Virus record (IMG/VR): IMGVR_UViG_3300033463_000034
Strand: one strand, 5' to 3'
Length of the DNA stretch: 33,831 bases
Origin: a virus
Lineage: Duplodnaviria > Heunggongvirae > Uroviricota > Caudoviricetes
The position numbers and the translations under genes are program-made. Below, in pieces: positions 2,095 to 30,012 of this stretch (positions within the stretch are counted from its first letter, which is position 1; the number at the start of each line of letters is the position of its first letter). The notes under the pieces are model-generated. The model did not search any database, had not been told where the DNA came from, and saw only the letters and a list, made by a program, of their open reading frames with translations.

Positions 2095-2126
2095 AAAAAA
2101 GAGATAGTTTTTATACTATCTCTTTT
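2095..2126 (-). terminator. Intrinsic terminator at the end of the TMP gene
   Basis: Stem AAAAGAGATAG/CTATCTCTTTT with a U-tract on the minus strand, overlapping the TAG stop at 2116-2118. Confidence 0.75.
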
Positions 2127-8100: not shown

Positions 8101-10593
8101 TGAAAATATTTGAACAGTTTTTTCTCAAATTGATAAACCTTCATTATTTCATATTTTTGAAATATTTAATAATGAATTAATTCCAGAAAACATTTGACCC
8201 AAACCAGCAATTGCATTGGTAAATAATTTTAATTCACCAATTCTTTGCATATTTTCAAAAAATACTTTTGCTTTTGATTCTATAGTACTAATAACTTCTT
8301 CATTATTTTTAATTTCTATTTGTTTATTTTTTAAACTTTCTTTATTTAAAGTATCATAAATATTAGTAATTTTTATTCCTGCAATTTTTGCTCCATTATA
8401 CATATCATTATAAAGTTTACTTAAATTTGAACGTGCTTCTTTTGTTAATCCTGTTTCTATTTGAGTATTTATTTTTTGCATAGTTTCAATAATATTTTGA
8501 TAATCTTCTGTAGAATATATATTTGTTAAAGTAAGAAGAGGTTCATTTGAAAGGGTATTTTTTAAATTTTTATATGCATCTTTAATTTCTTGAATTCTTT
8601 CTTCATATGACTGAGTATCAGTAGAATTTCATTGATATGCTAATTTAGGTATAATTTCTTGATTTAATTCTTCATTAGTTTGTTTTAATTCTTTTAAAAA
8701 ATTATTATCTAAATTATTTCAATCTTCTAATAATTCTTCATGTTCAGCTTCAGATAAATCAATTAATTCAACATATTCAGTGATAGCAGTTTTTATTTCT
8801 TCTTCAATTTTTGCATTAGCTCTTAATTTAGATTCTAATGTTTCAAGATAATCATTACCTTGTTGCACTTGAACTTGGTTTAAATCCCCTTGATATGTAT
8901 TAAAAATATCTTTATAATTACTTAAATTTTTAACTCCTTGTTTATCTAATTCAGAAGAAACACTTATTCTATTAATATTATCTAAGGCAGCTTTAAAATC
9001 ATCTGCGGCATGTTTATTTCTTTCTAAATTAGTTAATGTAATATTTAAACTATTTGCTAAAGTACCACTTAACATTTGAGTTCCAACAGAACCTAACATT
9101 AATAAAGCATTACGACCGCCGCCAATACCTTCAGTAAAGTTAGCTACAAGTGAAATTACTCCAGTTAAACCATCTATTAAACTATTTATACCTTTTTTAT
9201 CTATTAAAGCATTCATTAATCGTTCTGTAGCAGCACTTAATTGATTTAAATGAGCTTCTGTACTTTGCATATAAATATCTTGTTTTTCTTGTAATGAACC
9301 AGTTGCTGTTTCTGCAATAGTTAAATTCTTTTGAAAATCTCCTCAACTATCCATTAATGCAACTAATTGTGTGTATTGTCTAGTACCAGCAACATTTTGT
9401 GCTAATGCTACTTGTTGATCTTTACTTAAAGATTGTCATTTTGAACCCATTTCATCCAAGATTTCATTCATGGATTTAAGCTCACCTTGTTGATTTTTGA
9501 TATTAATACCAACTTTATTTAATGCTTCTGCATATTTACCTAAAGTTGTTCCATCATCTAAAGTTTTTCCTAATTCTAAATCTTGAATTCTTGCAAATAA
9601 TGTTTTAAATGCAGTACCAACTATATCTGCGCTTTGACGAGTTTTAGCAACTACAGTAGCCAATGCAGCAGTTGCATATTCATAACTTAATCCAACAGTA
9701 TCTGAAACTGCAGCAAATTTTTCTAACCCTTCTGCAATTTCTTCAGCGCTTGATGCTGTTGCCGCACCTAATGCAGTAATAACATCTGCAAAATACTCTA
9801 ATGATTTAGAACCTGAATCAAAATTATTCCAAATAGCAGTCATATAATCAGAAACTTCTTTTGCAGAAGATCCTAATACATTAGCCATTTTTAAAGTAAT
9901 TTCAGTTCTTTGATTAGCTTCAGTATCTGATAAACCTTGTTGATAATAAATTAAAGCACCCTTTGTATAATCAAGTGTAGTTCCGCCTAATTCTTTTGCA
10001 GCTTTGTTTGCTTGAACTGCAAATCTTTCCATTTCATCTGCACTTTTTCCAGTAACAATTCTAATATCATTTAATGATTTATCTAAATTTTGACTAAAAC
10101 TTCAAGCTTTTTGAATTGATCCTGTTAAATTATTAAATACACTTGAAGATAAGCCCCATTTAACTGTATTTTTAAATGAAGTTGCAATAGAATTTAATAA
10201 AGTATGAGTTTGTTTAAAATAAGCATTAGTAGTTGTTAATGCTGTATTTAAAGTACCAAATGCGGCAGCTCCAGTAGGACCTAATTTATTTAAATCTTTA
10301 GCTACTTTATCTATACCTATATCTTTGATACCTTTACTAAACTTAGTTAAATTTGTTACACCTACAGCTGGATTAAAAGACTTATCTAATGCCACGCCAA
10401 CTTCATTAGCTGTTTTTTTCAATGACATTAATTCATGTACTGCTTCTTTATAAGTTCCTTGATAATTTGTTGAACCTATAAAACTTGAAGTGGTCATATC
10501 TTGAATCTCTTTTAATTGAGCTTTTAATTGTTGTATTGACTGAGTATCAACATTAAATTTAATACCATACTCCATAGTTCCAGCTTTTGCCAT
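2116..10593 (-). CDS. Tail tape measure protein, ~2825 aa (code 4)
   Basis: Nine track fragments (10102..10593 through 3589..3885) share one frame and are separated by TGA; at least 33 in-frame TGA were traced. TMP-type N-terminal region (DKSLNDIRIVTGKS..MERFA..ANKAAKELG..; AGTRQYTQLVALMDSW), long helical/coiled-coil body, and C-terminal FATGGYTGEW..GRLAWLHQKELVLN motif in which both W are TGA. Stop is TAG. Not every gap was checked codon by codon for TAA/TAG. Confidence 0.9.
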
Positions 10594-10645
10594 ATCCTTT
10601 TTCCTCCTATCATTATGATATTTATATTTTCATTTTTTCTTCCAA

Positions 10646-10685
10646 AATAAAAAATTCCTTCTTATCATATTATGATAAAAAGGAA
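10646..10685 (-). terminator. Intrinsic terminator between chaperone and TMP genes
   Basis: Imperfect hairpin TTCCTTTTTATCATA/TATGATAAGAAGGAA followed by TTTTTTATTTT on the minus strand. Confidence 0.6.
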
Positions 10686-12893: not shown

Positions 12894-12926
12894 AAATAAA
12901 AAAGAGGAGTTATAAAAAACTCCTCT
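12894..12926 (-). terminator. Intrinsic terminator after the major tail gene
   Basis: Stem AGAGGAGTT/AACTCCTCT with a U-tract on the minus strand. Confidence 0.7.
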
Positions 12927-12961
12927 CTATAAAAAATTTAATCCCTTTAATTTATAAACTA

Positions 12962-13897
12962 TTAAATAGATCCGTAAGGTTCTCCATTAGTTGTAACAGA
13001 ATCATATCCAGTTGAATCTATTCTAATTCCAGCTTCATGTTCCATAACAGTGTTAATATCACCAGCTAATTTTTCTGAATCTTCAACAACTTGGATAACA
13101 CATAAAACTTTTTTAGTTCTATTGAAATAAGTATATCCAGGGAATGCATCCATTGTGAATGTAAATGTTGAAGGATCTCCAGTAGCAGCCATTGAGAATG
13201 TGAAGTTTGATTGAATTTTTACGTTTGGTAATGTAATTTCAGCAGGCATATCTTTTCCTGAGATTTGATCTCTGAATAATGTGCTAGCTTCAACATAATA
13301 GTATCCAGCGAAGTTTTCTGCATCAATTTGTAATTCAGAAACTTTTGCAGAATTTTTAACTACATAGTAGTCTACTAAAACAGTAGATCCAGCTTTACTT
13401 GCAGCACCTTCTAATTTTTTACCATCAGCTGATACAGTTAATTCTTCAACCATTTCTCCTGTAATAGATCCATCAGCTTCAGTAATTGTTACGAATACTG
13501 GAGCAGTAGCATCGATTTCTTCAGAAGCTCCTAAAGCATCAGTTAAATCAATATTTCCTTCTGCATCAATATTAGCAGCTGAAGTAGCATGAACGTGAAC
13601 TTCAACACCTTCTTTTTTGAATAATCCAGCTCCTGATAACATTGAGAAACTAATTGGAGATAATAAAGCATCTTCAACAGTGAAAGTTAATGTTTTTTCA
13701 CCTTCCCATGCGATTAAACGAGTATTTCCTCTACCACCAGTTGCATAAACTGTAGTTGCTGCACCTTCGATAGTAGATGTTTTAGCTGTATCAATATATA
13801 ATACTGGTTGTCCAGCTTTGAATGTAGTTCCACCAATTGAAATTGGATATTTAGCTTTGAAAACTACATTACATATCTCTCTTACACCAAATTTCAT
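12962..13897 (-). CDS. Major tail (tube) protein, 311 aa
   Basis: Intact ORF, AAGGAGG RBS, own terminator. Beta-rich sequence (KTSTIEGAATTVYATGGRGNTRLIAWEGEKTLTF..DPSTFTFTMDAF) of the kind seen in siphovirus tail tubes; lies between head-tail genes and TMP. The single Trp is TGG. Confidence 0.75.
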   Translation of the reverse strand: MKFGVREICNVVFKAKYPISIGGTTFKAGQPVLYIDTAKTSTIEGAATTVYATGGRGNTRLIAWEGEKTLTFTVEDALLSPISFSMLSGAGLFKKEGVEVHVHATSAANIDAEGNIDLTDALGASEEIDATAPVFVTITEADGSITGEMVEELTVSADGKKLEGAASKAGSTVLVDYYVVKNSAKVSELQIDAENFAGYYYVEASTLFRDQISGKDMPAEITLPNVKIQSNFTFSMAATGDPSTFTFTMDAFPGYTYFNRTKKVLCVIQVVEDSEKLAGDINTVMEHEAGIRIDSTGYDSVTTNGEPYGSI

Positions 13898-13999
13898 AAG
13901 TTTTTTCCTCCTTTATAAATTATTAATTTTTCCTTTTATCACTTAATAAGATTCGCTTAATTACGTGTTTCTTATTATAATTCATTTATTAGAGTTTTA

Positions 14000-14767
14000 T
14001 TATAAACTCTGGTCTTTTTTATCAACATTCGAGTGAATATCTTCCATCCAGTCATCAACTTCCTCTAAATCCTTTGCTCCAGCTAATTGAGCTTTTAAAT
14101 GGATATCTCAATTAAATTTTAATTGATATCTCTTAAATTCATCAAATAATTGATAAATTGTATAATTTAGCAAAGTATTCATGTCTTTATTTTCTCCTAC
14201 TGCAAGAATTGAAACATATCTACTCAAAATAGCAATTTTCTGATTATTATTTCCCTTAGCTTCTGCCAATTTAATTTGACGATCTCTAAGTTTATCAGCT
14301 ATTTGCCTTGCCAAAGTTCCAGACGGATTATAATCAGTATCTGCGCCGCCGCCTAAACATAGTATTTCATTTAATATTTTTATAAAAGTATCATAATTAT
14401 CTTTATTCAAGTTAATCATAACATCATCTTGTTTTAAATCTATTGACATATTGTCAAAATTTATATTAATTGAATAAGTAGGAAATAATAGAGATAATAC
14501 CATAATAGCACAAGTTTTTTGCTTTTGTACATTGGGATTTTTTTCTCTCATTATTGACATTAATATTTCAAAATTACTTATATTTTCTAAACGATTTCTG
14601 TCCTCACTACTTAATTTTTCTTTTGAAAAACGCAACAATTCACAACCAGAGAAGAATGCCTCTTCTCCAATTAGTGCTACTTCTTTAATTGTTGGCGGAT
14701 GCAATAATAAATGAATTTCTTCTATTGGGATATCGTTACCAGATAACAAAAGTAAATCATTTAACAT
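14000..14767 (-). CDS. Hypothetical head-tail region protein, 255 aa (code 4)
   Basis: Track ORF 14108..14767 extends through TGA 14108 (LKFN-W-DIHLKAQLAGAKDLEEVDDWMED..) to TAA 14000. Start is coupled (TAATG) to the upstream stop. Confidence 0.75.
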
Positions 14768-15351
14768 TAATCCTCATCTGGAATGCGATCATCAGACCCA
14801 TGAATCGCTCTATATGATAGTGTATAACCAGATAACACTTCATCTAATACTAACTCATTACAACCCATAAAATTTAAAGTCCCAATACCTGTTAATTTAG
14901 AATTATTTAATATTCCATCAATATAACCTGCAATTTTTAATGGTCTAATTTGATAATTATCCATAGCTCAATAATCAGTATGACAAATTATATCAAAGTG
15001 AATAGTACAATCTCTAAATTGAGGATTCTTTGCATTTGGAGTAAAATTATCAAAAGAAATGATAATATAAGATTTTACTTTTTCATGCTCTGGCATAGGT
15101 ATTTTTGGGGCTAACTTAATGTAGCCATCCCTAATTAAAGTTGATAATGTAGTATTATTTACTACTTCTTTATAATCTTCATTTTCAAGATTTGATAAAC
15201 AATCTTTCATTGGAATTACTAATAATCTTAATAATTGTTTATTTTTTATTTGATTATCAAAAAATAATTTAGTTAGTATTCTTTCTATATCTTTTTCAAT
15301 AGAAAGAAAAGATGAGTTTAAATCTGGTATTTCAATAACATCTCTTTTCAT
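14767..15351 (-). CDS. Putative tail completion/terminator-like protein, 194 aa (code 4)
   Basis: Track ORFs 14968..15351 and 14767..14964 are in one frame, joined by TGA 14968 (ICHTDY-W-AMDNY). Function inferred from synteny. Confidence 0.65.
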
Positions 15352-15373
15352 ATCTATCTAGCTCCTTTTATCC

Positions 15374-16351
15374 CTATAAAGATTTTATTGTAATAGTTTT
15401 TACAACATCCTCTTCATTTTCTTTTCTATATATTAAATCAACAGATCCACTTTTTGCAGAAATAATTGTTATAATAACTTTATCGGTTGTTTGACTATCT
15501 ATCTTTGCTTTTGTATTACTTAAAACCCAACTACCGCCTAATGAATTAACAATAGTATAAGTACCTCTATCAAAAGGATAAAGTTCATCAGGACCATTTA
15601 TCGCGGCAGCATCGATTGGAGTTTCATTATTCTCATTAGATGATTCTTCATCTTCAGGAATAGTATTTGTAACTGGATCAAATTCATTTGTAAATGTTTC
15701 TTTTAAATATACAATTAACATTGTATCAGAAGTTATATCATTTACCATTTGAACTTCCCATATTCTATCTCTTATTTCGACTTTTTGGAATCTATGGAAG
15801 AATCTTTCAGTAGTTTCATCTTTTGTTACATATAAAACAACTTCATATCCCATTTCACTCCAAGAATTAAGATTTTTAGTATGCCATAATGTTCCTTTAG
15901 TCCATTTGCCAAGATATCCATAATAAGATTTACCATTAATAACAATTTCATCTTCCGCCTTTCTTATAGTTGCACGGAAGTATGCATTTTCTTCCAAGAT
16001 CTCTTGAATAACAATCCATCTTGTTGAAGTTTCTTTTCAAGTAAAAGTATCTCCAACTTTCATTCCTATTTCCTCTTCGCCTTCATGTGTTTTACCTTCG
16101 CGATGATCCGCATTTAAACATATATCTTTATAAGGAATAGAAATAATTTTATCATCATAATCTTCTTTTAATTTATCATGATTTATTAAACATCTAAACT
16201 CTCTACCATCTTCTAAAATTGCAGTTTGACCTTGATAAGAATATAATAATGCTTTTTTTAAACTTCTTAATTTATCAGCATTCATTCTTTGTTCTTGATT
16301 GCCGCCTCCGCGATAATCAATTCTAAGTCTTAAATTATCTAAGCTCGACAT
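15374..16351 (-). CDS. Putative head-closure/head-tail joining protein, 325 aa (code 4)
   Basis: Track ORFs 16037..16351 and 15374..15997 are in one frame, joined by TGA 16037 (GDTFT-W-KETSTRW). Stop is TAG. Function inferred from synteny. Confidence 0.65.
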
Positions 16352-16655
16352 AATCTTTCACCTTATTCATTAAATTTAAACATTCAAAGATTGTTCTTCT
16401 AAAACTGAAAAAATCTCTTTCATCAATTTCAAATAATCCTTCTAATTTAGATATTAATGATAATGTATCTGGACCTAATTCCGCATTAAATAAATTATTC
16501 ATTCCCGCAATTTCTTCAATTATTGTTGAAAGAGGGGTAGCTCAATCTATTCCCTCTTCCTTATTTGGTAGTAATTTATAAGTTTGATTAATTAATCTTT
16601 TTAAATTTGTAATAATAATTTCATTACTAATTTCAGTTTCATACTTAGTTATCAT
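16335..16655 (-). CDS. Small head-tail region protein, 106 aa, absent from the ORF track (code 4)
   Basis: ATG 16655: MITKYETEISNE..YKLLPNKEEGID-W(TGA 16542)-ATPLSTIIEEIAGM..FRRTIFECLNLMNKVKDYVELR, TAA 16335. Exactly fills the gap between two genes; RBS GAAAGGGG. Confidence 0.8.
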
Positions 16656-16657
16656 AA

Positions 16658-17203
16658 TTAACCCCTTTCTTTATAAGGTGCCATTATAATATCTAAAGTA
16701 GATTTAGGAGCACCATCTTTTCTAGGGGCTCTTCTTTTATATAAACGTTGTAAATGAAACCCTTCTCTTTCATAATCTTTCTTTATAACAAGTAACTTTT
16801 GCATGTGATTAGCTTGAGATGTAAATTTAAAATCTGTTCCACTAAATTTCATTCTTACATTTTCTATACTAGCTAACTGTTGACCTAATCATTCAACAAT
16901 CATATAAGTTGATAATATATTAATTTCTTCTAATGATAAAATATTATTAAAATAACCCACTATATATTGTTTTTCAGTATGAGTTTCTTCTTCATTAGTT
17001 ATTTCTATATCTTCTTCTTTTCCTACTTCATAATCAAATAAATTAATTCTAGGAAATTCAAATTTAGGAATTGCAGAAATTAATAAATCTTCTAACATTC
17101 TATAAGTTTCATCTTTTGTCAACTCCATATACATGTCATCAGTTATCTTTGATAAAAAGCTATCATATATAACAGAAAAAGGTGTTGTATTATTATCTTC
17201 CAT
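16658..17203 (-). CDS. Putative head-tail adaptor/connector, 181 aa (code 4)
   Basis: Track ORFs 16889..17203 and 16658..16852 are in one frame, joined by TGA 16889 (TYMIVE-W-LGQQLAS). GAGGTG RBS. Confidence 0.7.
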
Positions 17204-17221
17204 ACTACACCTCCTCTTTTA

Positions 17222-17788
17222 TTAATTTATAATTTTATATCTTCCACTTGTGCTGCTAGTAGTTGTTTTTGTATTTGTAGCTTCCATAGGGTTAGCTCTT
17301 CTTTTACTTGTAGCAGCCTCTTCTTTAGAATCTTCTTCTGAATTTTCATTTAATTCTATAGATCTAGATACATTAAATCCTGTTTTATTAAAAATTTCTT
17401 CTCTTTTAGCATTACTATCAATTTTTAAATCAACTGCATCTTGTTTAATTAACTCAACAACTCCTTTAGGACCAAACTCTAAAGCATCTTGTAACTGAGC
17501 TAAAGATCCTTCTTTTAATAGTTTTTTAATAATTTCTTGAGTATAATAATATTCAGGTTCAACTTCACCTAAAATTTCTTCTACAGCTTCTTCATCTTGA
17601 ATAATAAGATAGTTTTTTAATAATTCTTTTCCGCCTCTTGTCCATGATAATTTTTCAATTTCATCAAAAGTAACTTCTTTAGTTTCTCCAGCAGTAAAAG
17701 TTCTATGTGCTCCTGTATCAGGAATAATATATCCAACAGGACCTGTATCTCTATTTGTTAATTTTATGATTTTACTTTTTTCAATCAT
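17222..17788 (-). CDS. Hypothetical protein downstream of the capsid gene, 188 aa
   Basis: Intact ORF, AAGGAGG RBS, TAA stop. The single Trp is TGG. Confidence 0.8.
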   Translation of the reverse strand: MIEKSKIIKLTNRDTGPVGYIIPDTGAHRTFTAGETKEVTFDEIEKLSWTRGGKELLKNYLIIQDEEAVEEILGEVEPEYYYTQEIIKKLLKEGSLAQLQDALEFGPKGVVELIKQDAVDLKIDSNAKREEIFNKTGFNVSRSIELNENSEEDSKEEAATSKRRANPMEATNTKTTTSSTSGRYKIIN

Positions 17789-17875
17789 AATTTTAAGCCT
17801 CCTTGTATCTCCATTTTATATTTTTATTCTTATAAATAATATACAATAAATTTTCAATATTTTCAAATTTTCCAA

Positions 17876-17915
17876 CAAAAAATCGGGGAAGATTAATTTA
17901 TTATAATTAATCTTC
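17876..17915 (-). terminator. Intrinsic terminator after the major capsid gene
   Basis: Stem GAAGATTAATT/AATTAATCTTC (17888-17915) followed by CCCGATTTTTTG on the minus strand. Confidence 0.6.
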
Positions 17916-17962
17916 TTAAATCTCAATTATAATATTTTTTCTTCCCCAAAATTATTTATATA

Positions 17963-19003
17963 TTAAATTGAATCAGTGATTGATAAACTTGTATTTCTAT
18001 ATACACAAATATTATTTGTAATTAATGTAGCAACACCAAATTTTTTGTAAACTCTGATTTCTCTTGACCAGTCTTCATTGTCAACTTCTTTAACAGCAGT
18101 AGCTCCTTCGAAAGCAATTTTAACTGGTTTTGTATTATCTCCAGCAGGGATAATCCAAGCATATGATGGATCAATAACTTTAGTAGTGTTAGTTTCATCT
18201 GTATAAGATTGATTTAAGATAATTACATTGTGTCCTTTGTAATTAGCTAAGTAACCATTATTCCATCTTTGATCTTTCATTGCGTCAGATCTCCATCCAG
18301 ATTCAGGAACCATAGTTGCAGCAAATTCATAAGTACAGTAAATAGTTGATTTACCATATGAGTCAGCTACAGAAACTAATCTATCCATTTCGCTTTCTAC
18401 GAATTGGTTTTCAGTAACTTTATTAGCTCCTTGTAATGTTTCTACAGATGCAATTAAAGCTTTAGCGATTTCTTTATAAACAGCTTCATCTAATCCTTCC
18501 ATAACGATTTCGATTAAATCAGCAAAATCTACTCTACCATCTAAGAATTCTTCGAATCCGATTTGAGCAGCTCCACCCCAAGCTTCAGTTGTTACATCGA
18601 TATATTTTCCATCTAATTTGAATACTTCATAAACACCAGCTAAACCAACTCTAGTAACGAATTGTTTTGCTCTTCTTTTTGAAGCAGTTGTAATTTTTTG
18701 AACGAATCTAGGTTTATCTCCATTTGCTACAGTTTTAATTTCAGCAAACATTCCATATTGATCTAATACTTTTTTAGGTAATACATCACTAATAACTTCT
18801 TCGATTAATTCAAAAATTGTATTTTGGTTAGCTCTATATAAAGCATAGCTTCCAGCTAATTCTTTTAATTCACTTCTTAAAGTGTCATTTAAAGCAGCAT
18901 AACTTAATTTAGTATCTCCATAAGAATATGCAACTGTTGAAGAAGGATCAGCTTTTGCTACAGTTTTAGCTAATGTAAATAAATCATTTTTTCCTAATGC
19001 CAT
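17963..19003 (-). CDS. Major capsid protein (HK97-fold expected), 346 aa
   Basis: Position after portal-protease-170 aa gene; size; AGGAGG RBS; strongly biased codon usage (GCT, TTC, AAC, ATC, GAA); followed by a terminator. All 5 Trp are TGG. Confidence 0.8.
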   Translation of the reverse strand: MALGKNDLFTLAKTVAKADPSSTVAYSYGDTKLSYAALNDTLRSELKELAGSYALYRANQNTIFELIEEVISDVLPKKVLDQYGMFAEIKTVANGDKPRFVQKITTASKRRAKQFVTRVGLAGVYEVFKLDGKYIDVTTEAWGGAAQIGFEEFLDGRVDFADLIEIVMEGLDEAVYKEIAKALIASVETLQGANKVTENQFVESEMDRLVSVADSYGKSTIYCTYEFAATMVPESGWRSDAMKDQRWNNGYLANYKGHNVIILNQSYTDETNTTKVIDPSYAWIIPAGDNTKPVKIAFEGATAVKEVDNEDWSREIRVYKKFGVATLITNNICVYRNTSLSITDSI

Positions 19004-19018
19004 ACTAATCTATCCTCC

Positions 19019-19531
19019 TTACGCAATTCTTTGAACCTTAACAGCTTCTTGTCCATCTGCCATTGTATATACTTTTACAACTTTAAATTGGATATCGCTT
19101 GAAGCGTCTTTTTCTAAGAATCCTTTCGCATTTATTCCTAATACGTTACCAACTTCTAAATCTGTCATTTCAGTTTTAGCATCTCTAGAAGCAGCAGCTT
19201 TTTCTAAACAGTTAGTTGTATAGATATCACCTACGTTAGTTTTGAAAACTCTTGGATAAATTTTCTTATCTGAGCTATCAGTAACTTTTTGAGCAAAGTC
19301 TTTGTAAGTTTCTCTATAACCATCGTATAATTTAACTTCGTTGAATACTAACATCCATTCACCATCTTCAGCTGTTTTGTTAACTTCACCGTTAGCATAA
19401 TCATATTTAACAAATTCACCATTTTCTAAGATTTCAATATCTTCAGCAGCAGGTAATTGTGCATAAATTTGACCAGTTCTTTGAGCTGATAAATGATTAG
19501 GTTCAACTTGTCCAAAACCTTTTCTTATCAT
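19019..19531 (-). CDS. Putative capsid decoration/cement protein, 170 aa
   Basis: Intact ORF between protease and capsid genes, with the same high-expression codon bias and a GAGGAG RBS. Function inferred. Confidence 0.6.
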   Translation of the reverse strand: MIRKGFGQVEPNHLSAQRTGQIYAQLPAAEDIEILENGEFVKYDYANGEVNKTAEDGEWMLVFNEVKLYDGYRETYKDFAQKVTDSSDKKIYPRVFKTNVGDIYTTNCLEKAAASRDAKTEMTDLEVGNVLGINAKGFLEKDASSDIQFKVVKVYTMADGQEAVKVQRIA

Positions 19532-19549
19532 AGTTTAATCCTCCTCTAT

Positions 19550-20263
19550 TTATTTTTGGCTATTTTGAGTATTTATGCAAGCAGAAATCCATGCAGGTAT
19601 AGAGCTTTCATTATTTTCAATATTGAAAGTTGTAACTGTTGAATTTTCTTCTTCTGTTGTATTTTCATTTTTAGCTATATCCTCTGAATCAAAATTAACC
19701 TTATTTCTTACACAAATTACAGATAATTTTGCTTCAATTTCATCTAAGCTATATTCATTAATATGTTCTTTAACATCTTTCTTATCTTCATCTGATAACA
19801 TATAAAAACTATTAATTAAATTATTTTTCTTTTCAGTTTCTACTTGATTTTTAAATTCAACTAATTCATTATATTTACTTTCTAATTCAGAATAAGATGC
19901 TTTTAAAGAATTATAATCTTCTAAAGAAAATTCAGATTCAGCATTTGCTTCTTCCGTAACTTCTTCAGATTCATTTTCTACTTCTGTATTTTCAATTTCT
20001 TCTTCTACAGGAGTTTCTTCTTCTTGTTCTCCATTAGATTCTTCTTCAGTTTCAGCTTCAGTATTTTCTTCTTCTTCAACTTCAGGTTCTTCTATGCTTT
20101 CTTCAGCTTCACTTTCTTCACTAAATTCAGCTTCAGGAGTTTCTTCTACAGAAGTTTCTTCTGTGTCAATAGAAGCTTCAGCAGTTTCTTCTTCTACTAC
20201 TTCTTCAACATTTTCAGTTTCTGCAGCAGTTTCTTCGATAACTTCTTGATTTTCTATTTCCAT
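19550..20263 (-). CDS. Possible nested in-frame scaffold protein, 237 aa
   Basis: Perfect AAGGAGG sits 6 nt upstream of an internal ATG (20261-20263, ..ALEGGKN-M-EIENQ), exactly at the start of the acidic region. Confidence 0.55.
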   Translation of the reverse strand: MEIENQEVIEETAAETENVEEVVEEETAEASIDTEETSVEETPEAEFSEESEAEESIEEPEVEEEENTEAETEEESNGEQEEETPVEEEIENTEVENESEEVTEEANAESEFSLEDYNSLKASYSELESKYNELVEFKNQVETEKKNNLINSFYMLSDEDKKDVKEHINEYSLDEIEAKLSVICVRNKVNFDSEDIAKNENTTEEENSTVTTFNIENNESSIPAWISACINTQNSQK

Positions 20264-20968
20264 ATTTTTTCCTCCTTCTAATGCAAATTTTAAATCTTGC
20301 ATCATAGTAAATAATGTGTGTTTAAAATCATCATCTACTTTACTAAAAGTTGAACTTACTTGTGGAGCTGTTACGCTAGCACCTTCAAAACAAGGTTCAA
20401 CATCTTCTCCTAAGATACATAATTTAGAAAAAATTGCATCATTAATTATGAAAAAATCCATACCTGTTTTAGTATTAGTTGACCAATGTCCATCTAAACT
20501 TTCTTCATCTAATTCCATAGATTGATTATTTCCTTTTTCAATAACTCTTTTAGCTTCTTCGTATTGTCCAGTCCATAAAAAACCAGTAGTCATTAAATAT
20601 TCTCTTGTTATTTTATTTCCAAAATCATCAGTATCTTCAAATTCTTGAAACCATACTTTTGCATCTGGAGCAACAAAACCATAAGGTTTAGTTAAACAAT
20701 TAAATTTAATTCCTTCATCATCAAAGATAACTTGTTCTCCATGATCTGCGAAGTCTTCTTTTTCTTCTTTATAATATCCTACAATAGGAGCCCCTCTTAA
20801 TGTTTTTGCCATGTCTGCGGCAACTTCTTTAGTTATGTAGCTATGATTTCTATTTTCTCCTACATATAAAACTTTAATCTCACATTTAGACATTAAAGGA
20901 TTAATATCTAAAGGTTGAAGATTAATGAATTCAGGAGAACTAATTGTTGCAATTGATTGATGCATCAT
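19550..20968 (-). CDS. Prohead protease-scaffold fusion, 472 aa
   Basis: N-terminal globular domain (KVLYVGENRNHSYI..LRGAPIVG..QSMEL..FSKLCILG..PCFEGA) followed by a very acidic low-complexity linker and a coiled-coil C-terminus; lies directly after the portal. All 4 Trp are TGG. Confidence 0.75.
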   Translation of the reverse strand: MMHQSIATISSPEFINLQPLDINPLMSKCEIKVLYVGENRNHSYITKEVAADMAKTLRGAPIVGYYKEEKEDFADHGEQVIFDDEGIKFNCLTKPYGFVAPDAKVWFQEFEDTDDFGNKITREYLMTTGFLWTGQYEEAKRVIEKGNNQSMELDEESLDGHWSTNTKTGMDFFIINDAIFSKLCILGEDVEPCFEGASVTAPQVSSTFSKVDDDFKHTLFTMMQDLKFALEGGKNMEIENQEVIEETAAETENVEEVVEEETAEASIDTEETSVEETPEAEFSEESEAEESIEEPEVEEEENTEAETEEESNGEQEEETPVEEEIENTEVENESEEVTEEANAESEFSLEDYNSLKASYSELESKYNELVEFKNQVETEKKNNLINSFYMLSDEDKKDVKEHINEYSLDEIEAKLSVICVRNKVNFDSEDIAKNENTTEEENSTVTTFNIENNESSIPAWISACINTQNSQK

Positions 20969-21032: not shown

Positions 21033-22640
21033 CTAAGATTGAGATTCTTTATTTTGAATAGTTTTCTCAGTAACATCTTCACCTTTAGACTCATTTGTTG
21101 GTCTTCCAGCTTCATCATTTGTTGAATCGGCATTTCCGCCATTTTTATTTTGTTCATTAACTCTATTAAGTACATCAGAGTTCATTGTACTAGACATCAT
21201 AGGTGGAATAAATACATTAATTAAATCTAATATATCATTTTCAAAATATGCATTAGCAAGTATAGAACTTTGAGATTGACCTAGTGCAATTTGTGCTAAT
21301 AATTTACTATAACCTAATTGCATTTGTTCTTTATATAATTTAGCCATTTCTTTATAATTATAAATAGTTGTTGTTAATAATTGTATTCTATAATATATTT
21401 TCTTTGGAGTCTTATTAAATCTTTTAATTAAATAATTTAAAAAATCTTGAAAACTTAACAATAAATTATATAATGATGCTTCATCATTTAAAATTGATTT
21501 TTCAAGAGCAATATTACCATCAGTATTAAATTGCATTTGAGAAATACCTGCTTCATTAAATACAGTTCTTTCTACTTTCTCTAAATCATCTACTGTTGTT
21601 GTAGTATTTCTATCAGCCATATCTGCAACTTCTACATCTGCAAAAGTAGTTAAAACATCTATTCCAATTGCTTTACCCAACATATTAACAGCATTATTAT
21701 GAAGTTGTTGAGCTTCATCTACATCAAATATTAAATCTCCATTTTTATCTAAAGGCATTTTTTGAATTATAATTTTTAATAATTTTTGCAACATTTTCTT
21801 TCTATCTAATTCTTGTGCATCATTTAAATCAATGATTGCTGGAATAACAGATATAAGAACTGGGAAATCTTCCCCATTAATATTAAATTTAATTGTGTTA
21901 TTTATATCTAATAAATACCATCCTGCAGTATCTCCAGCAAAATCTGGCACCAATTTTCCATTTTTGTAAAGAATATAACCTTTTTTAAATTCTTTTGGAA
22001 ATAAATTTAATACTTTCATTCTTTGATTTGCATCTTTAAATGCTTCATCAAAATATTTCATATTAAATTCTACTGCAGGTCTTCCGCCAACTTTATATCT
22101 AGAACGACAATATTGGATAGGAAGCTCTTGTATTTGAGTTATACTATCTTCTTCAATAATATAACCATAATAACATCCATTTTTAATAACTTTTAAAGCG
22201 ACTTCTCCAAAATATTTTTTTACACCAAAATTATCAAAATAATCAAGGACTTGATGAAATGTATTTAAAATTTTAGTATCTTTTAAATTTTCATCATTAA
22301 TATAAGGAGTTACCATTCAGTCATATCTATACATATATGCTAAATAACGACATAATCTGTTATAAATACCACTTACTCTATAAAAGAAATTAGAAATATC
22401 TCTCATTGTTTTTAAATCATTTTGGGCTATTGCTTTTAAAACAACACCTTTATTAGCAAGTCTTGGATCTACTCTTTTTAAACTAGAATTGATATCAAGA
22501 GTTGCATCTTCTAATGTTTGTAACCCTACTTTAATTTTTGAAAAATCAACAGGAATATATTCTTCACTTGGAACTCTGGTGTCATTAGGAGTCATAACAA
22601 ATCCTTTCTTTTTTATTTCTTGGATTCTATTATTTATCAA
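21033..22640 (-). CDS. Portal protein, 535 aa (code 4)
   Basis: Track ORFs 22317..22661 and 21033..22316 are contiguous in frame across TGA 22317 (YMYRYD-W-MVTPY). Likely TTG start at 22640 after AGGAGG; stop is TAG. Position between terminase and protease. Confidence 0.85.
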
Positions 22641-22674
22641 AGTAGACACCCTCCTTTGCAATTAAATCAGTATA

Positions 22675-23149: not shown

Positions 23150-24910
23150 TTATTTTTTATTTGTAAAAAACATCATATCACTAATATTTCGTTTTTTTCT
23201 CTTTTTCTTTTTATCTTCTTCTTGTTTAATATAATAAAGTCCATATTCAAAAGCAGAAAATTTATCCTTAGGAATTGCACGATTACTTTGTTTTAAAATA
23301 ATATTTACACCTTCATTTTCTTCAGCTAAATTTAACATTTGTTCTCTTAATATTGTTGTAAGAGTAAAAGGTAATAAATAATCTCCTCTTTTATCACTAT
23401 CCATATTTTGTCCAATTTTTGTAGACATTAATTTCACTTTTGCTTGACCTTCATCTATTAAAAACTTAATTTTTCCACTCATTAATTGAGTTTGTACATA
23501 AGTATGAGCTTCTGTATTAATTGCCGCATTTGCTTTAATTAAATACATAGCATCATCTTCAACTCCTGGACCTTTTATTTTTTTATAAGGTTCAATAGCT
23601 TCTTCAGATGTTCCACCTTCAACTCCAAAAGGAGGAAGTTCTTCACCTGTTTCTGGATCTACTTGTCCCTTTGTCATAAAATCAATTAATCCAGCTCCTA
23701 AACCATTGGCATCAATAGCCATAATTTTAGCTTTATATTTATAAAATAATTTTTTAATATTTATTGCTTGTTTTTCAAAATCTTCTGCATCATAAGAATA
23801 TAAATTTACAAGTGTCTTTAATGCTGCACCTTGCACTTGCGGAGTAACTTTAAAAATACAAACTTCAGTAGTACATTTAAAACGTCCAACATCGACACCT
23901 AATATATAATAAGCATTTTTACTACTTCGTCCACTATATTCATATTCTGGTTGCAATAAAACTCTATGTTTATCAAATTTTTCTGCAGAGAAGAATGCGT
24001 TTTCTGCATCTCCACTTCATTCAGATTCATATTCACGAGCAAATGAACTATCATTATAAGTTCCATCTAATTTAAGTTCTTCAATAAAAGATTTTTTAAG
24101 TAACTTTTCCATTACTGGAACTCGTCAAGTTCCACCTAAAACAACAGCTTCCGCAGGTTCAATAATTTGTTGAATAAGTATTTGAATTAATTTCTCATAA
24201 GCAAATGAATTTTTTCATCCTGCAGTTGTTACATAAATTTGAGATTTATTAACGGTTTCTTCTTCATGTCTACTTCCATCTGCCAATCTTCTATCAACGT
24301 TCATAGTGGGAATAATAACTTCATTTAAAAGAGTTTGATCAATAAGAATACACTCTTCCATAAGTCCGCCAGTAGCACGTTTACCACGGGAACTTTGTTG
24401 TGCCGCAATAATATCTAACCTACTACCATTTTTAAATTTATACTCAACCATATTTTTACTAGCTTTTGTTTGACCTCTTGTTCAATCTATTTCATTTTTT
24501 AAACCAGGAATTAACTTACAAAGCTCTTCTGCTTTTTCTCTTGCAATTCCCGCAGCTTGTTCCTTACCACCTGTAGTAACAAATAAATGGGAATTAGGAT
24601 ATAAAATACATCTAAGCATTAAAATTAACACTGATAAAAATGATTTAGAATAAGCACGAGGAAATGTAGCATAAGCATATCTATGACGCATTACAGCTCT
24701 TAAAAATACTCTTTGATAAAAGAATAAATTAAAATTTTCAGGATTGTTTTCTCCGCATAAAAATTCAACAAAAATATCAGGATATTCTCTTCAAAATGCT
24801 ACATATTCTTTTATAATAGGTAAATTTTCTTTTATTCTTTCTTCTGATAAACCAACTTTTTTTATTAAAGATTTATTTTTAGATAATTCCATTAAATCCG
24901 CAAGAGCCAT
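23150..24910 (-). CDS. terL: Terminase large subunit, 586 aa (code 4)
   Basis: Track ORFs 24482..24691, 24215..24451 and 23150..23956 plus the upstream part share one frame across TGA 24791, 24482, 24215, 24125 and 24017. Walker-A-like PRAYSKS, Walker-B LMEE, motif III YVTTAG, RNase H-like nuclease motifs ILGVDVGR, IDANGLG and KDKFSA. ATG is coupled to the upstream TAA. Confidence 0.92.
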
Positions 24911-26151
24911 TAGCTATCACTTCCTTCATTATCAGAATAAGTATCTAAATCTTTTTCTTTTTGAGCTTCAACTTCTTCCATAAAAGCGGCATAATCTTCA
25001 TCTTCAATCTCAGTAACTCCATCTTGAGCAGCTGCTTCCGCCTCATTCATTTCTTTTTGAATTTGAATTTTCTTTAAAGCATCTTCAATTTGTTGACCAA
25101 AACCTAAATCTTGAGTAACTAATTTATGAAGATAATCATTCATATCTTTTAAAGTTAAATCAACTTTATCTTGAGGAATATCTGTTGCATATCTAGGAAT
25201 AAAACCATCTTTTTCACACATTGCAACTAATTCACCTACGCTATCAACAAAATCATTTTTATCTTCTTTATTTTGCGCTGCCGTAAATTTAGCTGATTTT
25301 CTTAATGATTCAGATACTTTTGATAATTTTTGAAAACCATCAACATCTCCAATATCAAGAGATTGATTCATTTTAAGATTTGTTTTACAAATTAATATTA
25401 ATGTATTAATTGTATCTGCATCTTGAATATCAAAAGACTCAGTCATTTCATTATAAATTCTTTCTAATTCAACTCATTCTGCAGGCTTATATAATCTACC
25501 TCATTTCATGGCTAAATATAATTTATCATCTTGAGTTAATTCTGCCGCAGTATCTATCATATCATCTTCAGACATATAATCATTTTCATTCATTCCAATT
25601 GAACCATTCATATTTGGTATTTGTCCAATAGGCAATAGAGTTGGATCTATAACAGGTTGTTCTTTATGTTTAGTTTCTGTTGAAATTAATGTTTTATATT
25701 CAGCTTCTGAAATTTCCCCAGCTTCAAATTTCTCTTTCGCTTCTGCCTCTCTTTGAGCTGCTTCCGCCGCATGTTGTTCTGCTCTTTCTTTATATCTTTG
25801 TTGTAATCTTTCACTATCTTTTCAACCAATAGGCTCACCAGTTTCTGGATCAAATTTTCATTGTTTTAATTTCATTTTAGATAAATATCTTCCAAATACT
25901 GATTGGCTAGTTAATTTACTAGGATCTTTTTCATAAATTCTATCTCTTAAAGTATTCCATTCTGCGGGAATATAAGGAACATCCATTTTTTCTAATAACC
26001 ATAGAAATGTACTTTCATCAAAATTATTAATATGCATTGTTAAACATTTTTTACATAATTCTGTTTTAGTTCCATCTTTATAAGTAAAAAATTGATTTTC
26101 ATCCATTATCTTGCCGCATTTTTCACAATAATATTTTTCTTTTTCGTTCAT
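24910..26151 (-). CDS. Zn-finger protein, candidate terminase small subunit, 413 aa (code 4)
   Basis: Track ORFs 25858..26151 and 24910..25446 are in one frame across TGA 25858, 25822, 25501 and 25474. N-terminal CEKC..CKKC; translationally coupled to terL. TerS identity is inferred. Confidence 0.7.
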
Positions 26152-26165: not shown

Positions 26166-27260
26166 TTATCTACTTAATCTATCTTCTTTATTTTTTTTAT
26201 TTCTACAACATTTACAAATACTATATCATCCATCTTTTGAGGTAGAATTTTTAGAAAAATATAAATTATGTGCTAATTTTACTTCTCCACAACGAGAACA
26301 CCTTTTTCATTGACCCTTCTTTTGCGTTGTATAATACCAATTTAAATATCTTTTAACGGCTGATTCCGCCAATAATTTAGGTATTTTATTGCGCCAAAGT
26401 GAACTAATATACTCAACCGAATGTTTTATACCGTGGTTAAGCTCTAGTAAGAACTGGATCTCCGCATTACTTCTACCATCTATTTTATAAATTAATAAAT
26501 CATAATATAAAGGATATTCATCTTTTAATGTGGTTTCAATTAAATTATCTAAGTCTAACATCATATAATAACAATCTCCAGTAAAATGTTCATAACTTTC
26601 TTCTTTTAACATACTATAATTACATAATAAAGCAGAAATATGTTTTGGATTAAAGAAAGAACATAATCCATTACTTACTGGCATACCATTTTTATCAAAT
26701 GTAATTTCTTCATCAAAATCAGCATGTGCAAATGATTTAACTGCATTTGAAATAAAAATAGGTTGTTTAATTGTATTTTTTATTGTATATTGTTCTTGGC
26801 ACATTTCTATTAATTGTTTTTTTAAAGCATATTTTCTTTTACCAGTTGCACGAGCAGCCTGGTTTTTAACATTTTCTATAGCGACATCTAACTCTGCTAA
26901 AGCAGGCATTTCCGCCTTATCTTTAGGCGAGATGTGAATTTTTGGTGTTAATAATACATTTTTATCATTATCTATTGTTATATTATAAAGACCATCTTCT
27001 CCATTTTCAAATTTATTTACCAATCCCTGATAAGATACTTCTCTTTTATTTATTGTAATCATTCTATTGTTTGTTAATATTTCTTTTTTTTGTTTTTCTT
27101 CTTTATCCATAGCTAATACTATATAATTTGATAATATTTCAATATATTTTTCGGTTAATTGATTAGGAGGAGTTTGTCTTACTATTTCTTCTACTAGATT
27201 TTTACGATCTTCCGCATTTTTTAAAGTATAATCAAGTTTAATTTTAGTTTCCACTAGCAA
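26166..27260 (-). CDS. Putative transcription regulator: sigma70-region-4-like HTH plus C-terminal C4 Zn finger, 364 aa (code 4)
   Basis: TTG start after AAGGAG. HTH-like YKIDGRSNAEIQFLLELNHGIKHSVEYISSLWRNKIPKLLA. After TGA 26307: KRCSRCGEVKLAHNLYFSKNSTSKDG-W(TGA 26226)-YSICKCCRNKK, then TAA 26166. Confidence 0.75.
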
Positions 27261-27309
27261 AACTCCTTTCTTTCTATATGTTAATCATCTTTGTCCTATC
27301 TTTATAAAT

Positions 27310-27338
27310 ATTATATTCCAAAAATTTTGAAATGTCAA
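27310..27338 (-). promoter_or_regulatory. Consensus sigmaA promoter driving the minus-strand module
   Basis: TTGACA (27333-27338) - 17 nt - TATAAT (27310-27315), followed by ATTTATA as in the early promoters. Confidence 0.85.
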
Positions 27339-29886: not shown

Positions 29887-29899
29887 GCGGCGACCGCAG

Positions 29900-29926
29900 T
29901 CTAGATTTTTCAAATCTAGATTTTTT
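29900..29926 (+). terminator. Intrinsic terminator
   Basis: TCTAGATTT/AAATCTAGA followed by TTTTTT. Confidence 0.8.
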
Positions 29927-29966
29927 CGTGCTTAACCGCTTGCTTCCGCTTCCAACCCGAAAAATG

Positions 29967-29980
29967 CGAACAAATATTCG
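29967..29980. promoter_or_regulatory. Gram-positive LexA box (1 mismatch)
   Basis: CGAACAAATATTCG. Confidence 0.65.
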
Positions 29981-30012
29981 TGTAATAATTTTTCATTGAT
30001 TTGGGGCTTGGG

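What the first reader, a model, noticed from the sequence alone, without database searches (positions are those of the whole stretch)
12962..20968. High-copy virion genes exclude TGA while neighbouring low-copy genes use it
Seen: protease/scaffold (4 Trp), 170-aa protein (1), major capsid (5), 188-aa protein (1) and major tail (1) give 12 TGG and 0 TGA. In the same module TerL has 5 TGA, the TerS candidate 4, the TMP at least 33, and each head-tail gene 1. In an AT-rich genome with an efficient native UGA-Trp tRNA, TGA would be expected to dominate everywhere. Inference: UGA decoding is limiting (a suppressor competing with host RF2), or bulk shell proteins may accumulate before the code switch while packaging and tail completion are held back.
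Basis: partly seen in the sequence, partly recalled or inferred. Interest (0 to 1): 0.7.

Follow-up and report, generated by a model that had tools for sequence, protein, structure and literature searches.

The report
Abundant virion genes avoid recoded TGA
In a large gut or rumen phage that reads the stop codon TGA as tryptophan, the capsid, capsid-partner and tail-tube genes keep the ordinary codon TGG while their neighbours switch freely to TGA, and several independently recoded relatives do the same, which suggests that reading the recoded stop codon carries a cost that matters most for heavily made proteins.

Summary
In the window the five named genes hold 0 TGA and 12 TGG. The other late genes hold 55 TGA and 20 TGG (Fisher p=1.3e-6).

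The window is the late module of a TGA=Trp recoded phage of the "Agate" type. It comes from a 105-kb IMG/VR record. Early genes are mostly TGA-free.

Fold searches confirm an HK97-fold capsid protein and a siphophage tail tube.

The partition holds in relatives and is convergent. At least three separately recoded clades keep MCP, the 170-aa protein and the tube at 1 TGA to 167 TGG. TerL, the TerS candidate, the sigma-like gene, g178 and TMP together hold 320:217. A TAG-recoded relative, phAss-1, has no TAG in its MCP.

The scaffold-like 472-aa and 188-aa genes are only partly spared (15:73). A CHAP lysin outside the window (0:11) does not fit the copy-number rule.

The best reading is expression-scaled selection against a costly recoded codon. 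The evidence is a graded pattern, extreme codon bias in MCP and strong ribosome-binding sites. Competition with host RF2 is inferred, not shown. Accumulation before the code switch is less likely.

The papers I searched do not describe this for phages. This scan has noted the same pattern on at least seven other phage genomes.

The parts
17963..19003 (-). Major capsid protein, 346 aa, HK97 fold. 0 TGA : 5 TGG.
   Evidence: AlphaFold model pLDDT 74.8. Foldseek gives 344 PDB hits at E<=1e-3, all capsids or encapsulins. In recoded relatives 1 TGA: 103 TGG. Lys/Glu/Gln codons end in G only 1.3% of the time.
19019..19531 (-). 170-aa protein between the scaffold-like gene and the MCP. Candidate capsid cement or decoration protein. 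0:1.
   Evidence: PHROG families of unknown function. The ESM Atlas neighbours include clusters where a minority of members carry Phage_cement or minor-capsid families, which is a lead only. In recoded relatives 0:44.
19550..20968 (-). 472-aa YonD_N-like protein with an acidic, coiled-coil-like middle. Candidate scaffold or prohead protease (unverified). 0:4.
   Evidence: ESM Atlas neighbours carry PF27290 YonD_N. Alignment A3 shows a conserved N-terminal domain and an acidic, low-complexity middle. In relatives 12:57, so it is only partly spared.
17222..17788 (-). 188-aa protein after the MCP, function unknown. 0:1.
   Evidence: phrog_30998, unknown function. In relatives 3:16. Too few Trp codons to say much.
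12962..13897 (-). Major tail (tube) protein, 311 aa. 0:1.
   Evidence: phrog_2729 virion structural protein. Model pLDDT 64.7. Foldseek hits siphophage tail tube proteins 8xkn, 9jgh and YSD1 6xgr at E 1e-9 to 1e-6. In relatives 0:20.
17880..17947 (-). Terminator-like long hairpin plus U-run just after the MCP stop codon.
   Evidence: Sequence read. Folded at -24.6 kcal/mol, z=-4.8 against shuffles.
12901..12928 (-). Terminator-like hairpin plus U-run after the tube gene.
23150..24910 (-). Terminase large subunit, a contrast gene. 5 TGA : 0 TGG.
   Evidence: phrog_2, phrog_5909 and phrog_15503. Its TGA sites align to W, Y or F in standard-code relatives. In relatives 81:64.
24910..26151 (-). 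413-aa gene overlapping the TerL start. TerS candidate by position only. 4:2.
   Evidence: phrog_3314, unknown function. In relatives 96:61.
26166..27338 (-). Sigma-factor-like protein (PHROG name) at the head of the late module. 3:3.
   Evidence: phrog_5767 at E=3.9e-51, with an HNH/EndoVII-like C-terminus. No Pfam support. In relatives 67:55, and 9:0 in two clade B genomes.
21033..22661 (-). Portal protein. 1:1.
   Evidence: phrog_2739 at E=2.6e-78. In relatives 26:43.
14000..17203 (-). Five head-tail or connector-region genes (181, 106, 325, 194 and 255 aa), one TGA each.
   Evidence: In relatives their TGA share runs from 29% to 65%.
2116..10668 (-). Tape measure protein, 2850 aa. 34:7.
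   Evidence: PF10145 PhageMin_Tail and tape-measure PHROG families.

Best explanation
The window is the late (morphogenesis) module of a roughly 130-150 kb siphovirus with an SPbeta/YonD-type head module. It belongs to the TGA-to-Trp recoded gut and rumen phages described as the 'Agate' type, which infect a host with the standard code.

After the lineage gained an opal-suppressor tRNA, AT mutation pressure pushed TGG towards TGA wherever the change was nearly neutral. In low-copy genes it was nearly neutral. In genes translated in very large amounts (the capsid protein, its 170-aa partner and the tail tube) each UGA carries a cost. The cost could be slower or incomplete read-through, truncated products or misreading, and it multiplies with output. 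Purifying selection therefore keeps TGG there, and does so more weakly in the scaffold-like 472-aa gene.

Shown:
- the partition itself
- its recurrence in independent clades
- its graded form
- the parallel codon bias of the spared genes

Inferred:
- that expression level is the driver
- that the cost arises from competition of the suppressor with host RF2, or from poor charging of the UCA tRNA by host TrpRS
For: (1) Code and setting.
- Coding density is 0.70 under code 11 and 0.92 under code 4.
- TGA aligns with conserved W in standard-code relatives.
- The minus-strand block of the genome holds 25 TGA: 88 TGG. The late genes other than the five named ones hold 140:61.

(2) Identity.
- HK97-fold MCP.
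- Tail-tube fold.

(3) Relatives, as core (MCP, 170-aa, tube) against other late genes:
- clade A, 25 recoded relatives: 1:136 against 389:372
- clade B, an independent origin: 0:25 against 68:9
- clade C: 0:6 against 19:31
The tree shows these clades are separated by starred branches.

(4) Turnover on the clade A tree.
- 30 Trp columns of the other late genes: 133 TGG/TGA changes.
- 10 Trp columns of the five genes: 2 changes.
- Poisson p=6e-17.

(5) Gradient of TGA share.
- 1% in core lattice genes
- 17% in the 472-aa and 188-aa genes
- 35% in portal and g181
- 48% in other connector genes
- 60% in TerL, TerS candidate, sigma-like, g178 and TMP

(6) General codon selection. G-ending Lys/Glu/Gln codons make up 1.3% in MCP, 4% in tube and 6% in the 170-aa gene, against 16% in TerL. 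So these genes prefer A at Lys/Glu/Gln but G at Trp. The effect is specific to the codon, not to base composition.

(7) All five genes have GGAGG-type Shine-Dalgarno sites (dG about -11 to -12). Only 3 of 13 other late genes do (p=0.0065). Terminator-like hairpins follow the MCP and the tube gene.

(8) phAss-1, a relative recoded TAG to Gln, has 0 TAG, 0 CAA and 15 CAG in its MCP. Two connector genes there have 6 and 7 TAG. Its paper lists TerL and TMP, not MCP, as carrying TAG (PMC10607447).

(9) Analogy. A ciliate with reassigned stop codons uses them less in highly expressed genes (PMC10553269).
Against: - No expression data. 'High-copy' rests on fold identity and general phage knowledge. 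The functions of the 170-aa, 188-aa and 472-aa genes are not established.
- The 472-aa and 188-aa genes do carry TGA in several lineages (15:73).
- A CHAP-domain lysin outside the window (G000 36992-38413) has 0 TGA: 11 TGG with fully AT-adapted codons. Its partial homologue in one relative has 0:8. Virion copy number does not explain it.
- Across 14 genes the link between Lys/Glu/Gln bias and TGA share is weak (Spearman 0.37, p=0.19).
- The base after TGA does not differ from the base after TGG in this genome (p=0.55).
- The rule is not universal. Published crAss-like phages have reassigned stops in MCP genes (PMC7886860; PMC9523058).
- Counts over relatives are not independent, although the parsimony count and the three clades reduce this problem.
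Confidence: 0.65

Rival explanations
1. Timing. The capsid, cement and tube genes stay TGA-free so that they can be translated before the suppressor tRNA is available. Shell proteins would then accumulate early, and TGA would hold back packaging and tail completion.
For: - Early genes of this phage are also mostly TGA-free.
- Borges et al. propose recoding as a timer for late genes.
- A terminator-like hairpin follows the MCP and another follows the tube gene. A promoter-like site lies after the MCP hairpin. Separate transcription units are therefore possible.
Against: - The partners needed for procapsid assembly carry TGA: portal 1:1 here and 26:43 in relatives, and the scaffold-like gene 12:57, including every clade B genome.
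- The sigma-like gene that heads the module has 3 TGA, and 9:0 in two clade B genomes.
- Avoidance is graded, not all-or-none.
- One relative tolerates a TGA at a conserved W of the MCP.
- Promoter-like sites are no more frequent than in shuffled sequence.
Confidence: 0.12
2. History, not selection. The head and tube genes were recently brought in from standard-code relatives by recombination, or have had too little time to gain TGA.
For: - Standard-code and recoded phages are close kin, down to near-identical genomes.
- On an MCP-only tree some recoded sublineages (L050/L128/L137, L121, L012-15) sit among standard-code phages.
- The CHAP lysin is a variable gene.
Against: - On the MCP-only tree the window's own group is an all-clade-A clade: 22 rows at support 89, with the inner 11 at 100. 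It has diverged to about 70-88% identity and still has no TGA, while TerL in the same genomes flipped Trp codons about 5.6 times per site.
- Third positions of the five genes are fully AT-adapted, with 96% A-ending Lys/Glu/Gln codons.
- The same genes are spared in three separate TGA clades and in a TAG-recoded relative.
- The tube tree keeps clade A together.
Confidence: 0.05
3. Stoichiometry throttle. TGA is kept in low-copy genes because partial termination at UGA lowers their output. Lattice proteins are exempt, so the recoded codon helps set virion protein ratios.
For: - TGA share rises as presumed copy number falls.
- The TMP, needed in a few copies, has 34 TGA.
- Borges et al. found a few gene families biased towards the recoded codon.
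Against: - In clade B low-copy genes reach 88% TGA. That is close to the 90-96% A-ending share measured at Lys/Glu/Gln codons in the window genome (not measured in clade B). Mutation pressure alone would give this, with no benefit needed.
- TGA and TGG swap freely at the same sites in low-copy genes, which looks neutral.
- Truncated TMP or terminase fragments would be wasteful.
Confidence: 0.1
4. Accuracy, not efficiency. UGA is decoded ambiguously, by a mischarged suppressor or by near-cognate tRNAs. Wrong residues are most harmful in proteins that build a repetitive lattice.
For: - The suppressor seen in relatives is an odd five-armed tRNA that depends on host TrpRS.
- No phage TrpRS gene was found.
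- The spared proteins are lattice builders.
Against: No data on charging. The CHAP lysin is not a lattice protein and is also TGA-free. With the data in hand this cannot be told apart from the efficiency reading.
Confidence: 0.08

Closest known systems
'Agate'-type TGA-to-Trp recoded gut phages (Borges et al., bioRxiv 10.1101/2021.08.26.457843)
   Same: - Genome of about 127-154 kb with low GC, from cattle or other animal guts.
- Code 4 in late structural genes and standard code in replication genes.
- Very close standard-code relatives.
- A suppressor tRNA in relatives.

   Different: That work looked for gene families biased towards TGA: an intron endonuclease, a tail protein and a lysis-cassette membrane protein. 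It does not report that MCP, tube and the capsid partner are kept TGA-free inside the recoded module. Whether this record falls inside their Agate clade could not be tested, because their genomes are not on hand.
phAss-1 / proposed Phassvirus, TAG-to-Gln recoded gut phages (PMC10607447; OQ749652)
   Same: Same head module, with 53% MCP identity. TerL and TMP carry the recoded stop. The MCP and the 170-aa homologue have none, and the MCP uses only CAG for its 15 Gln.
   Different: A different stop codon and amino acid, higher GC (41%), and a human gut source. The authors do not comment on the MCP being spared.
Lower use of reassigned stop codons in highly expressed genes of ciliates (e.g. Oligohymenophorea sp. 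PL0344, PMC10553269)
   Same: A reassigned stop codon is used less in highly expressed genes. The authors read this as possible translational inefficiency.
   Different: That is a eukaryotic nuclear code with altered eRF1 and a complete reassignment. Here a virus imposes the code on a host that presumably still has RF2, and the contrast is nearly absolute (1:167).
crAss-like recoded phages (Yutin et al. 2021, PMC7886860; Peters et al. 2022, PMC9523058)
   Same: Recoding is confined mostly to late genes, and suppressor tRNAs are present.
   Different: In those phages MCP genes can carry reassigned stops. In-frame stops in TerL, MCP and portal were used to detect recoding, and capsid peptides were found only under code 15. 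MCP sparing is therefore a property of some lineages, not a universal rule.
Cultured standard-code relatives: Enterococcus phages EF1, EF5 and VRE9 (about 134-142 kb)
   Same: The MCP is 39.5% identical over 94% of its length, and genome size is similar.
   Different: No recoding (PMC10607447). They could serve as a laboratory chassis for tests.

Membership tests
TGA-to-Trp (code 4) recoded phage of a standard-code host | Coding density and ORF length recover when TGA is read as sense | tested here: met
   Density 0.70 rises to 0.92, and mean ORF length 186 rises to 307 aa.
TGA-to-Trp (code 4) recoded phage of a standard-code host | In-frame TGA aligns with conserved Trp in homologues (not Gly as in code 25) | tested here: met
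   Window TGA sites align with W in 20-46 standard-code relatives at most sites of TerL, g413, portal and the connector genes. A few sites align with Y or F.
TGA-to-Trp (code 4) recoded phage of a standard-code host | Only part of the genome is recoded, with early and replication genes largely TGA-free | tested here: met
   Minus-strand block at 65-99.6 kb holds 25:88. Late genes other than the five named ones hold 140:61 (Fisher p=2.6e-16).
TGA-to-Trp (code 4) recoded phage of a standard-code host | Phage-encoded suppressor tRNA with anticodon UCA | tested here: inconclusive
None in the 105-kb record held. Its tRNA array is cut by the contig end. A 96-nt tRNA(UCA) is present in 3 of the 4 close recoded relatives whose tRNA arrays were read; the fifth relative searched showed no tRNA at all. 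In one of those relatives the tRNAs leading up to it stand in the same order as in the window's cut array.
TGA-to-Trp (code 4) recoded phage of a standard-code host | The host uses the standard code (has RF2) | not testable with these tools
   The host is unknown. Indirect signs are sister phages with 0 in-frame TGA among 30-50 Trp codons and MAG bins that are mostly Bacillota, where the phage contigs were probably mis-binned.
HK97-fold major capsid protein | HK97 fold | tested here: met
   Model pLDDT 74.8, pTM 0.71. 344 PDB matches at E<=1e-3, all capsids or encapsulins. No Pfam or PDB sequence match.
Siphophage tail tube protein | Tail-tube fold | tested here: met
   Foldseek hits 8xkn, 8ygm, 9jgh and 6xgr at E 1e-9 to 4e-6. 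The model is of moderate quality, pLDDT 64.7.
Translational selection on codon use in highly expressed genes | Codon choice departs from the mutational expectation in a codon-specific way | tested here: met
   A-ending Lys/Glu/Gln codons make up 96% while Trp is 0% TGA. In relatives, MCP G-ending Lys/Glu/Gln codons are 1.3% and MCP TGA is 1%.
Translational selection on codon use in highly expressed genes | The strength of bias follows measured expression | not testable with these tools
The proxies agree: copy-number classes and Shine-Dalgarno strength. A 14-gene rank correlation is not significant.
Translational selection on codon use in highly expressed genes | The pattern is conserved and recurs across independent lineages | tested here: met
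   Three TGA-recoded clades and one TAG-recoded relative.
Pre-switch (early) expression of TGA-free late genes | All proteins needed for the early step are free of the recoded codon | tested here: not met
   The portal, the scaffold-like gene (in relatives) and the sigma-like gene carry TGA. Their roles are inferred.

The most novel reading that the evidence does not exclude
In this phage family the recoded stop codon acts as a built-in dosage dial. Genes for lattice proteins, and a CHAP lysin, are kept fully readable under either code. Every other late protein is damped by partial termination at UGA in proportion to its TGA count. Virion stoichiometry and lysis readiness would then be set partly by the code switch and not by promoters alone.
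Probability: 0.12. Interest if true: 0.75.

Novelty: new variant of a known kind. Interest (0 to 1): 0.5.

Why it matters
Stop-codon recoding in phages is usually described as an on/off timer for late genes. Here the late genes needed in the largest amounts are the ones kept free of the recoded codon. This happened repeatedly and independently, under both TGA and TAG recoding, within one phage family.

That is evolutionary evidence that reading a recoded stop codon stays costly. The reassignment would then be incomplete in the infected cell, and the cost becomes a quantity that can be measured.

The result also has practical uses:
- MCP and tail-tube genes of such phages can be found under the standard code, which affects marker-gene surveys.
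- Per-gene use of the recoded codon could serve as a proxy for expression in uncultured recoded phages.

The principle is ordinary codon selection, and the scan has met the same pattern in other phages. The result is solid but not startling.

Tried and rejected
- Pfam and PDB sequence searches for the five genes gave nothing useful. Identity had to come from fold searches and the ESM Atlas.
There are therefore no expression data.
- A test for leaky termination context found that the base after TGA does not differ from the base after TGG in this genome (p=0.55). A difference seen in relatives (p=2e-5) rests on non-independent sites, so I do not rely on it.
- The promoter scan found fewer sigma-70-like sites than in shuffled sequence, so it says nothing about separate early promoters.
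- Rank correlation of Lys/Glu/Gln bias with TGA share over 14 genes: rho 0.37, p=0.19.
- Code 25 (TGA=Gly) was rejected by alignment. TAG recoding of this genome was rejected by coding density, 0.73.
- No release-factor or TrpRS gene was found in this record or in five relatives.
- Host assignment from MAG bins was rejected. The hits are phage-sized contigs spread over bins labelled Erysipelotrichaceae, Bacilli, Lachnospiraceae, Prevotella, Methanobrevibacter, Treponema and others, which points to mis-binning.
- Recent import of the MCP was rejected for the window's own clade. It was not fully excluded for some sublineages.

Full report
WHAT THE WINDOW IS. The window is the reverse complement of bases 1-33831 of a 105,241-bp IMG/VR virus record, estimated about 70% complete. 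GC is about 27%. Greedy ORF calling gives a coding density of 0.70 under code 11, 0.73 with TAG read as sense, and 0.92 under code 4. The minus strand of the window carries a morphogenesis module in this order:
- sigma-like gene (PHROG name only)
- 413-aa gene
- TerL
- HNH endonuclease
- portal
- 472-aa YonD_N-like gene
- 170-aa gene
- 346-aa gene
- 188-aa gene
- five connector-region genes
- 311-aa gene
- two unknown genes
- 2850-aa tape measure protein
. The 346-aa protein has no Pfam or PDB sequence match. Its AlphaFold model (pLDDT 74.8) matches hundreds of HK97-fold capsids. The 311-aa protein models less well (pLDDT 64.7) but matches siphophage tail tubes. The 170-aa protein has only a weak lead to capsid cement proteins. 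'Protease/scaffold' for the 472-aa gene and 'TerS' for the 413-aa gene remain guesses.

THE OBSERVATION. Every count in the finding is correct. The five genes hold 0 TGA and 12 TGG. TerL holds 5:0, the 413-aa gene 4:2, the TMP 34:7, and each connector gene has one TGA. Against the other 13 late genes of the window (55:20) Fisher's p is 1.3e-6. Without the TMP it is 1.4e-4. The five genes end 96.4% of their Lys, Glu and Gln codons in A, which is more than their neighbours do. The retained TGG is therefore not a G-ending preference and not an un-ameliorated import. TGA means Trp, because the window's TGA sites align with invariant or near-invariant W in 20-46 standard-code relatives.

GENOME CONTEXT. 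Over the whole record, a minus-strand block at 65-99.6 kb is largely TGA-free (25:88). The late plus-strand genes other than the five named ones hold 140:61. This is the published early/late split of recoded phages. Size, GC, source and the presence of very close standard-code relatives fit the 'Agate' phages of Borges et al.. The record ends inside a tRNA array (Ile, Thr, Gly, Met, Ala, Gln) and shows no tRNA(UCA). Three close recoded relatives carry a 96-nt tRNA(UCA), and in one of them the tRNAs leading up to it stand in the same order as the window's cut array. No release factor or TrpRS gene was found in this record or in five relatives, two of them at least 91% complete. Decoding therefore seems to rely on the phage tRNA and host TrpRS. 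Competition with host RF2 is an inference.

RELATIVES. The MCP finds 319 relatives in IMG/VR, of which 80 were kept, and 72 loci in genome bins. Most use the standard code, with 0 in-frame TGA among 30-50 Trp codons. On a concatenated tree the recoded ones fall into at least three groups separated by strongly supported branches:
- clade A: the window plus 25 recoded relatives
- clade B: L156, L165, L166 and L170
- clade C: L184

Counts of TGA:TGG by clade:

| Clade | MCP + 170-aa + tube | 472-aa + 188-aa | Other late genes |
|---|---|---|---|
| A | 1:136 | 7:54 | 389:372 |
| B | 0:25 | 8:13 | 68:9 |
| C | 0:6 | 0:6 | 19:31 |

To limit pseudo-replication I counted changes on the clade A tree. 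Thirty conserved Trp columns in the other late genes changed between TGG and TGA 133 times. Ten such columns in the five genes changed twice (Poisson p=6e-17). The only exception is a single MCP codon in L006. The 472-aa and 188-aa genes are only partly spared.

A DIFFERENT RECODING, THE SAME SPARING. Phage phAss-1 (OQ749652) has a homologous head module with 53% MCP identity, but it reads TAG as Gln. Its MCP has 0 TAG, 0 CAA and 15 CAG. The 170-aa homologue has 0 TAG and 4 CAG. Two connector genes have 7 and 6 TAG. Its paper names TerL and TMP, not MCP, as carrying TAG.

WHY: COST SCALED BY EXPRESSION. Four lines of evidence favour this over a timing device.
- The effect is graded. The TGA share is 1% in lattice genes, 17% in the 472-aa and 188-aa genes, 35% in portal and g181, 48% in the other connector genes, and 60% in TerL, the 413-aa gene, the sigma-like gene, g178 and TMP.
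- The spared genes show the strongest ordinary codon selection. G-ending Lys/Glu/Gln codons are 1.3% in MCP, 4% in tube and 6% in the 170-aa gene, against 16% in TerL, and these sites also change far less often.
- All five genes have GGAGG-type ribosome-binding sites, against 3 of 13 other late genes (p=0.0065). Terminator-like hairpins follow the MCP and the tube gene, as is usual for abundant late messages.
- In clade B the low-copy genes have reached 88% TGA. That is near the 90-96% A-ending share of Lys/Glu/Gln codons in the window genome, so TGA looks close to neutral there while it is still excluded from MCP.

A ciliate with reassigned stops likewise uses them less in highly expressed genes (PMC10553269).

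AGAINST THE TIMING READING. The portal, the scaffold-like gene (in all clade B genomes and some clade A genomes) and the sigma-like gene heading the module carry TGA. A procapsid could therefore hardly be finished before the switch. These roles are inferred, so the argument is not decisive.

AGAINST RECENT IMPORT. On an MCP-only tree the window's group of 22 is made up only of clade A members. It has diverged to about 70-88% identity and still has no TGA. The tube tree keeps clade A whole. Some sublineages do sit among standard-code MCPs, so exchange cannot be excluded everywhere.

LOOSE ENDS.
- A CHAP-domain lysin outside the window (G000 36992-38413) has 0 TGA and 11 TGG with fully AT-adapted codons. 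Its partial homologue in one relative has 0:8. It is not a lattice protein, and it runs against the published idea that lysis genes are the most recoded.
- The rank correlation between Lys/Glu/Gln bias and TGA share over 14 genes is weak.
- The base after TGA shows no bias in this genome.
- MCP sparing is not universal, since crAss-like phages have reassigned stops in MCP genes.
- No expression data could be obtained.

KNOWN OR NEW. The papers I could search describe the early/late split and a few families biased towards the recoded codon. They do not describe exclusion of the recoded codon from the most abundant virion genes. The scan's own notes report the same pattern on at least seven other recoded phage genomes, including TGA=Gly and TAG recodings. 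Those notes are unchecked and agree with my reading but do not add evidence. I class the finding as a new variant of a known kind. It is a well-supported, convergent case of codon selection against a reassigned stop codon in a virus.

Noticed in passing
L116:6163-6258 (-), L117:1856-1951 (-), L118:9143-9238 (-): Three recoded relatives carry a 96-nt Trp-like tRNA with anticodon UCA. Its long extra arm ends in the loop CUCCAAA, which is the normal tRNA-Trp anticodon loop (CCA), and the stem of that arm covaries between the three. It looks like a decoy anticodon arm for TrpRS. Earlier notes of this scan report it too.
   Followed up: partly
L115:5751-5819 (G005, complete genome with terminal repeats): This fully assembled recoded relative has 22 TGA in the late genes examined but no tRNA(UCA) detectable by ARAGORN or Rfam. 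At the homologous spot there is a weak tRNA-like remnant with the loop CUUUAAA.
   Followed up: partly
L116:2830-3203 (-): ARAGORN calls a tmRNA gene (tag ANKVKSLFTVNALSFA) inside the tRNA array of a recoded relative. A phage-borne ribosome-rescue RNA could matter if UGA decoding stalls or fails.
   Followed up: no
L117:138-214 (-): A tRNA with anticodon CUA, which would suppress amber and which ARAGORN labels Pyl, sits in the tRNA array of a TGA-recoded relative.
   Followed up: no
G000:C1:36992-38413 (= L081:5993-7414, outside the window): A CHAP-domain lysin has 0 TGA : 11 TGG with AT-adapted codons. Its partial homologue in G002 (L119) has 0:8. This late-region gene shuns TGA although it is not a lattice protein.
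   Followed up: partly
window 22675-23043 (-): An HNH homing-endonuclease-like gene sits between TerL and the portal. It has one TGA here.
   Followed up: no
window 26166-27338 (-): The PHROG 'sigma factor' family protein at the head of the late module has an HNH/EndoVII-like zinc-finger C-terminus and no Pfam sigma domain. It is itself recoded: 3 TGA here, and 9:0 in two clade B genomes.
   Followed up: no
L001-L191 (trees): One phage family holds at least three separate origins of TGA recoding plus a TAG-recoded branch (phAss-1). It also holds near-identical genomes that differ only in having a few TGA (L028 against L030, L027 and L023), where TGA appears first in the sigma-like and 413-aa genes.
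   Followed up: partly
L120-L191: Phage-sized contigs of this family are binned into MAGs labelled Methanobrevibacter, Prevotella, Treponema, Elusimicrobia, Mollicutes and others. These are almost certainly binning errors driven by low GC.
   Followed up: no
window 29347-32614 (+): The oppositely oriented genes at the window's far end hold 0 TGA : 9 TGG, which fits standard-code early genes.
   Followed up: no
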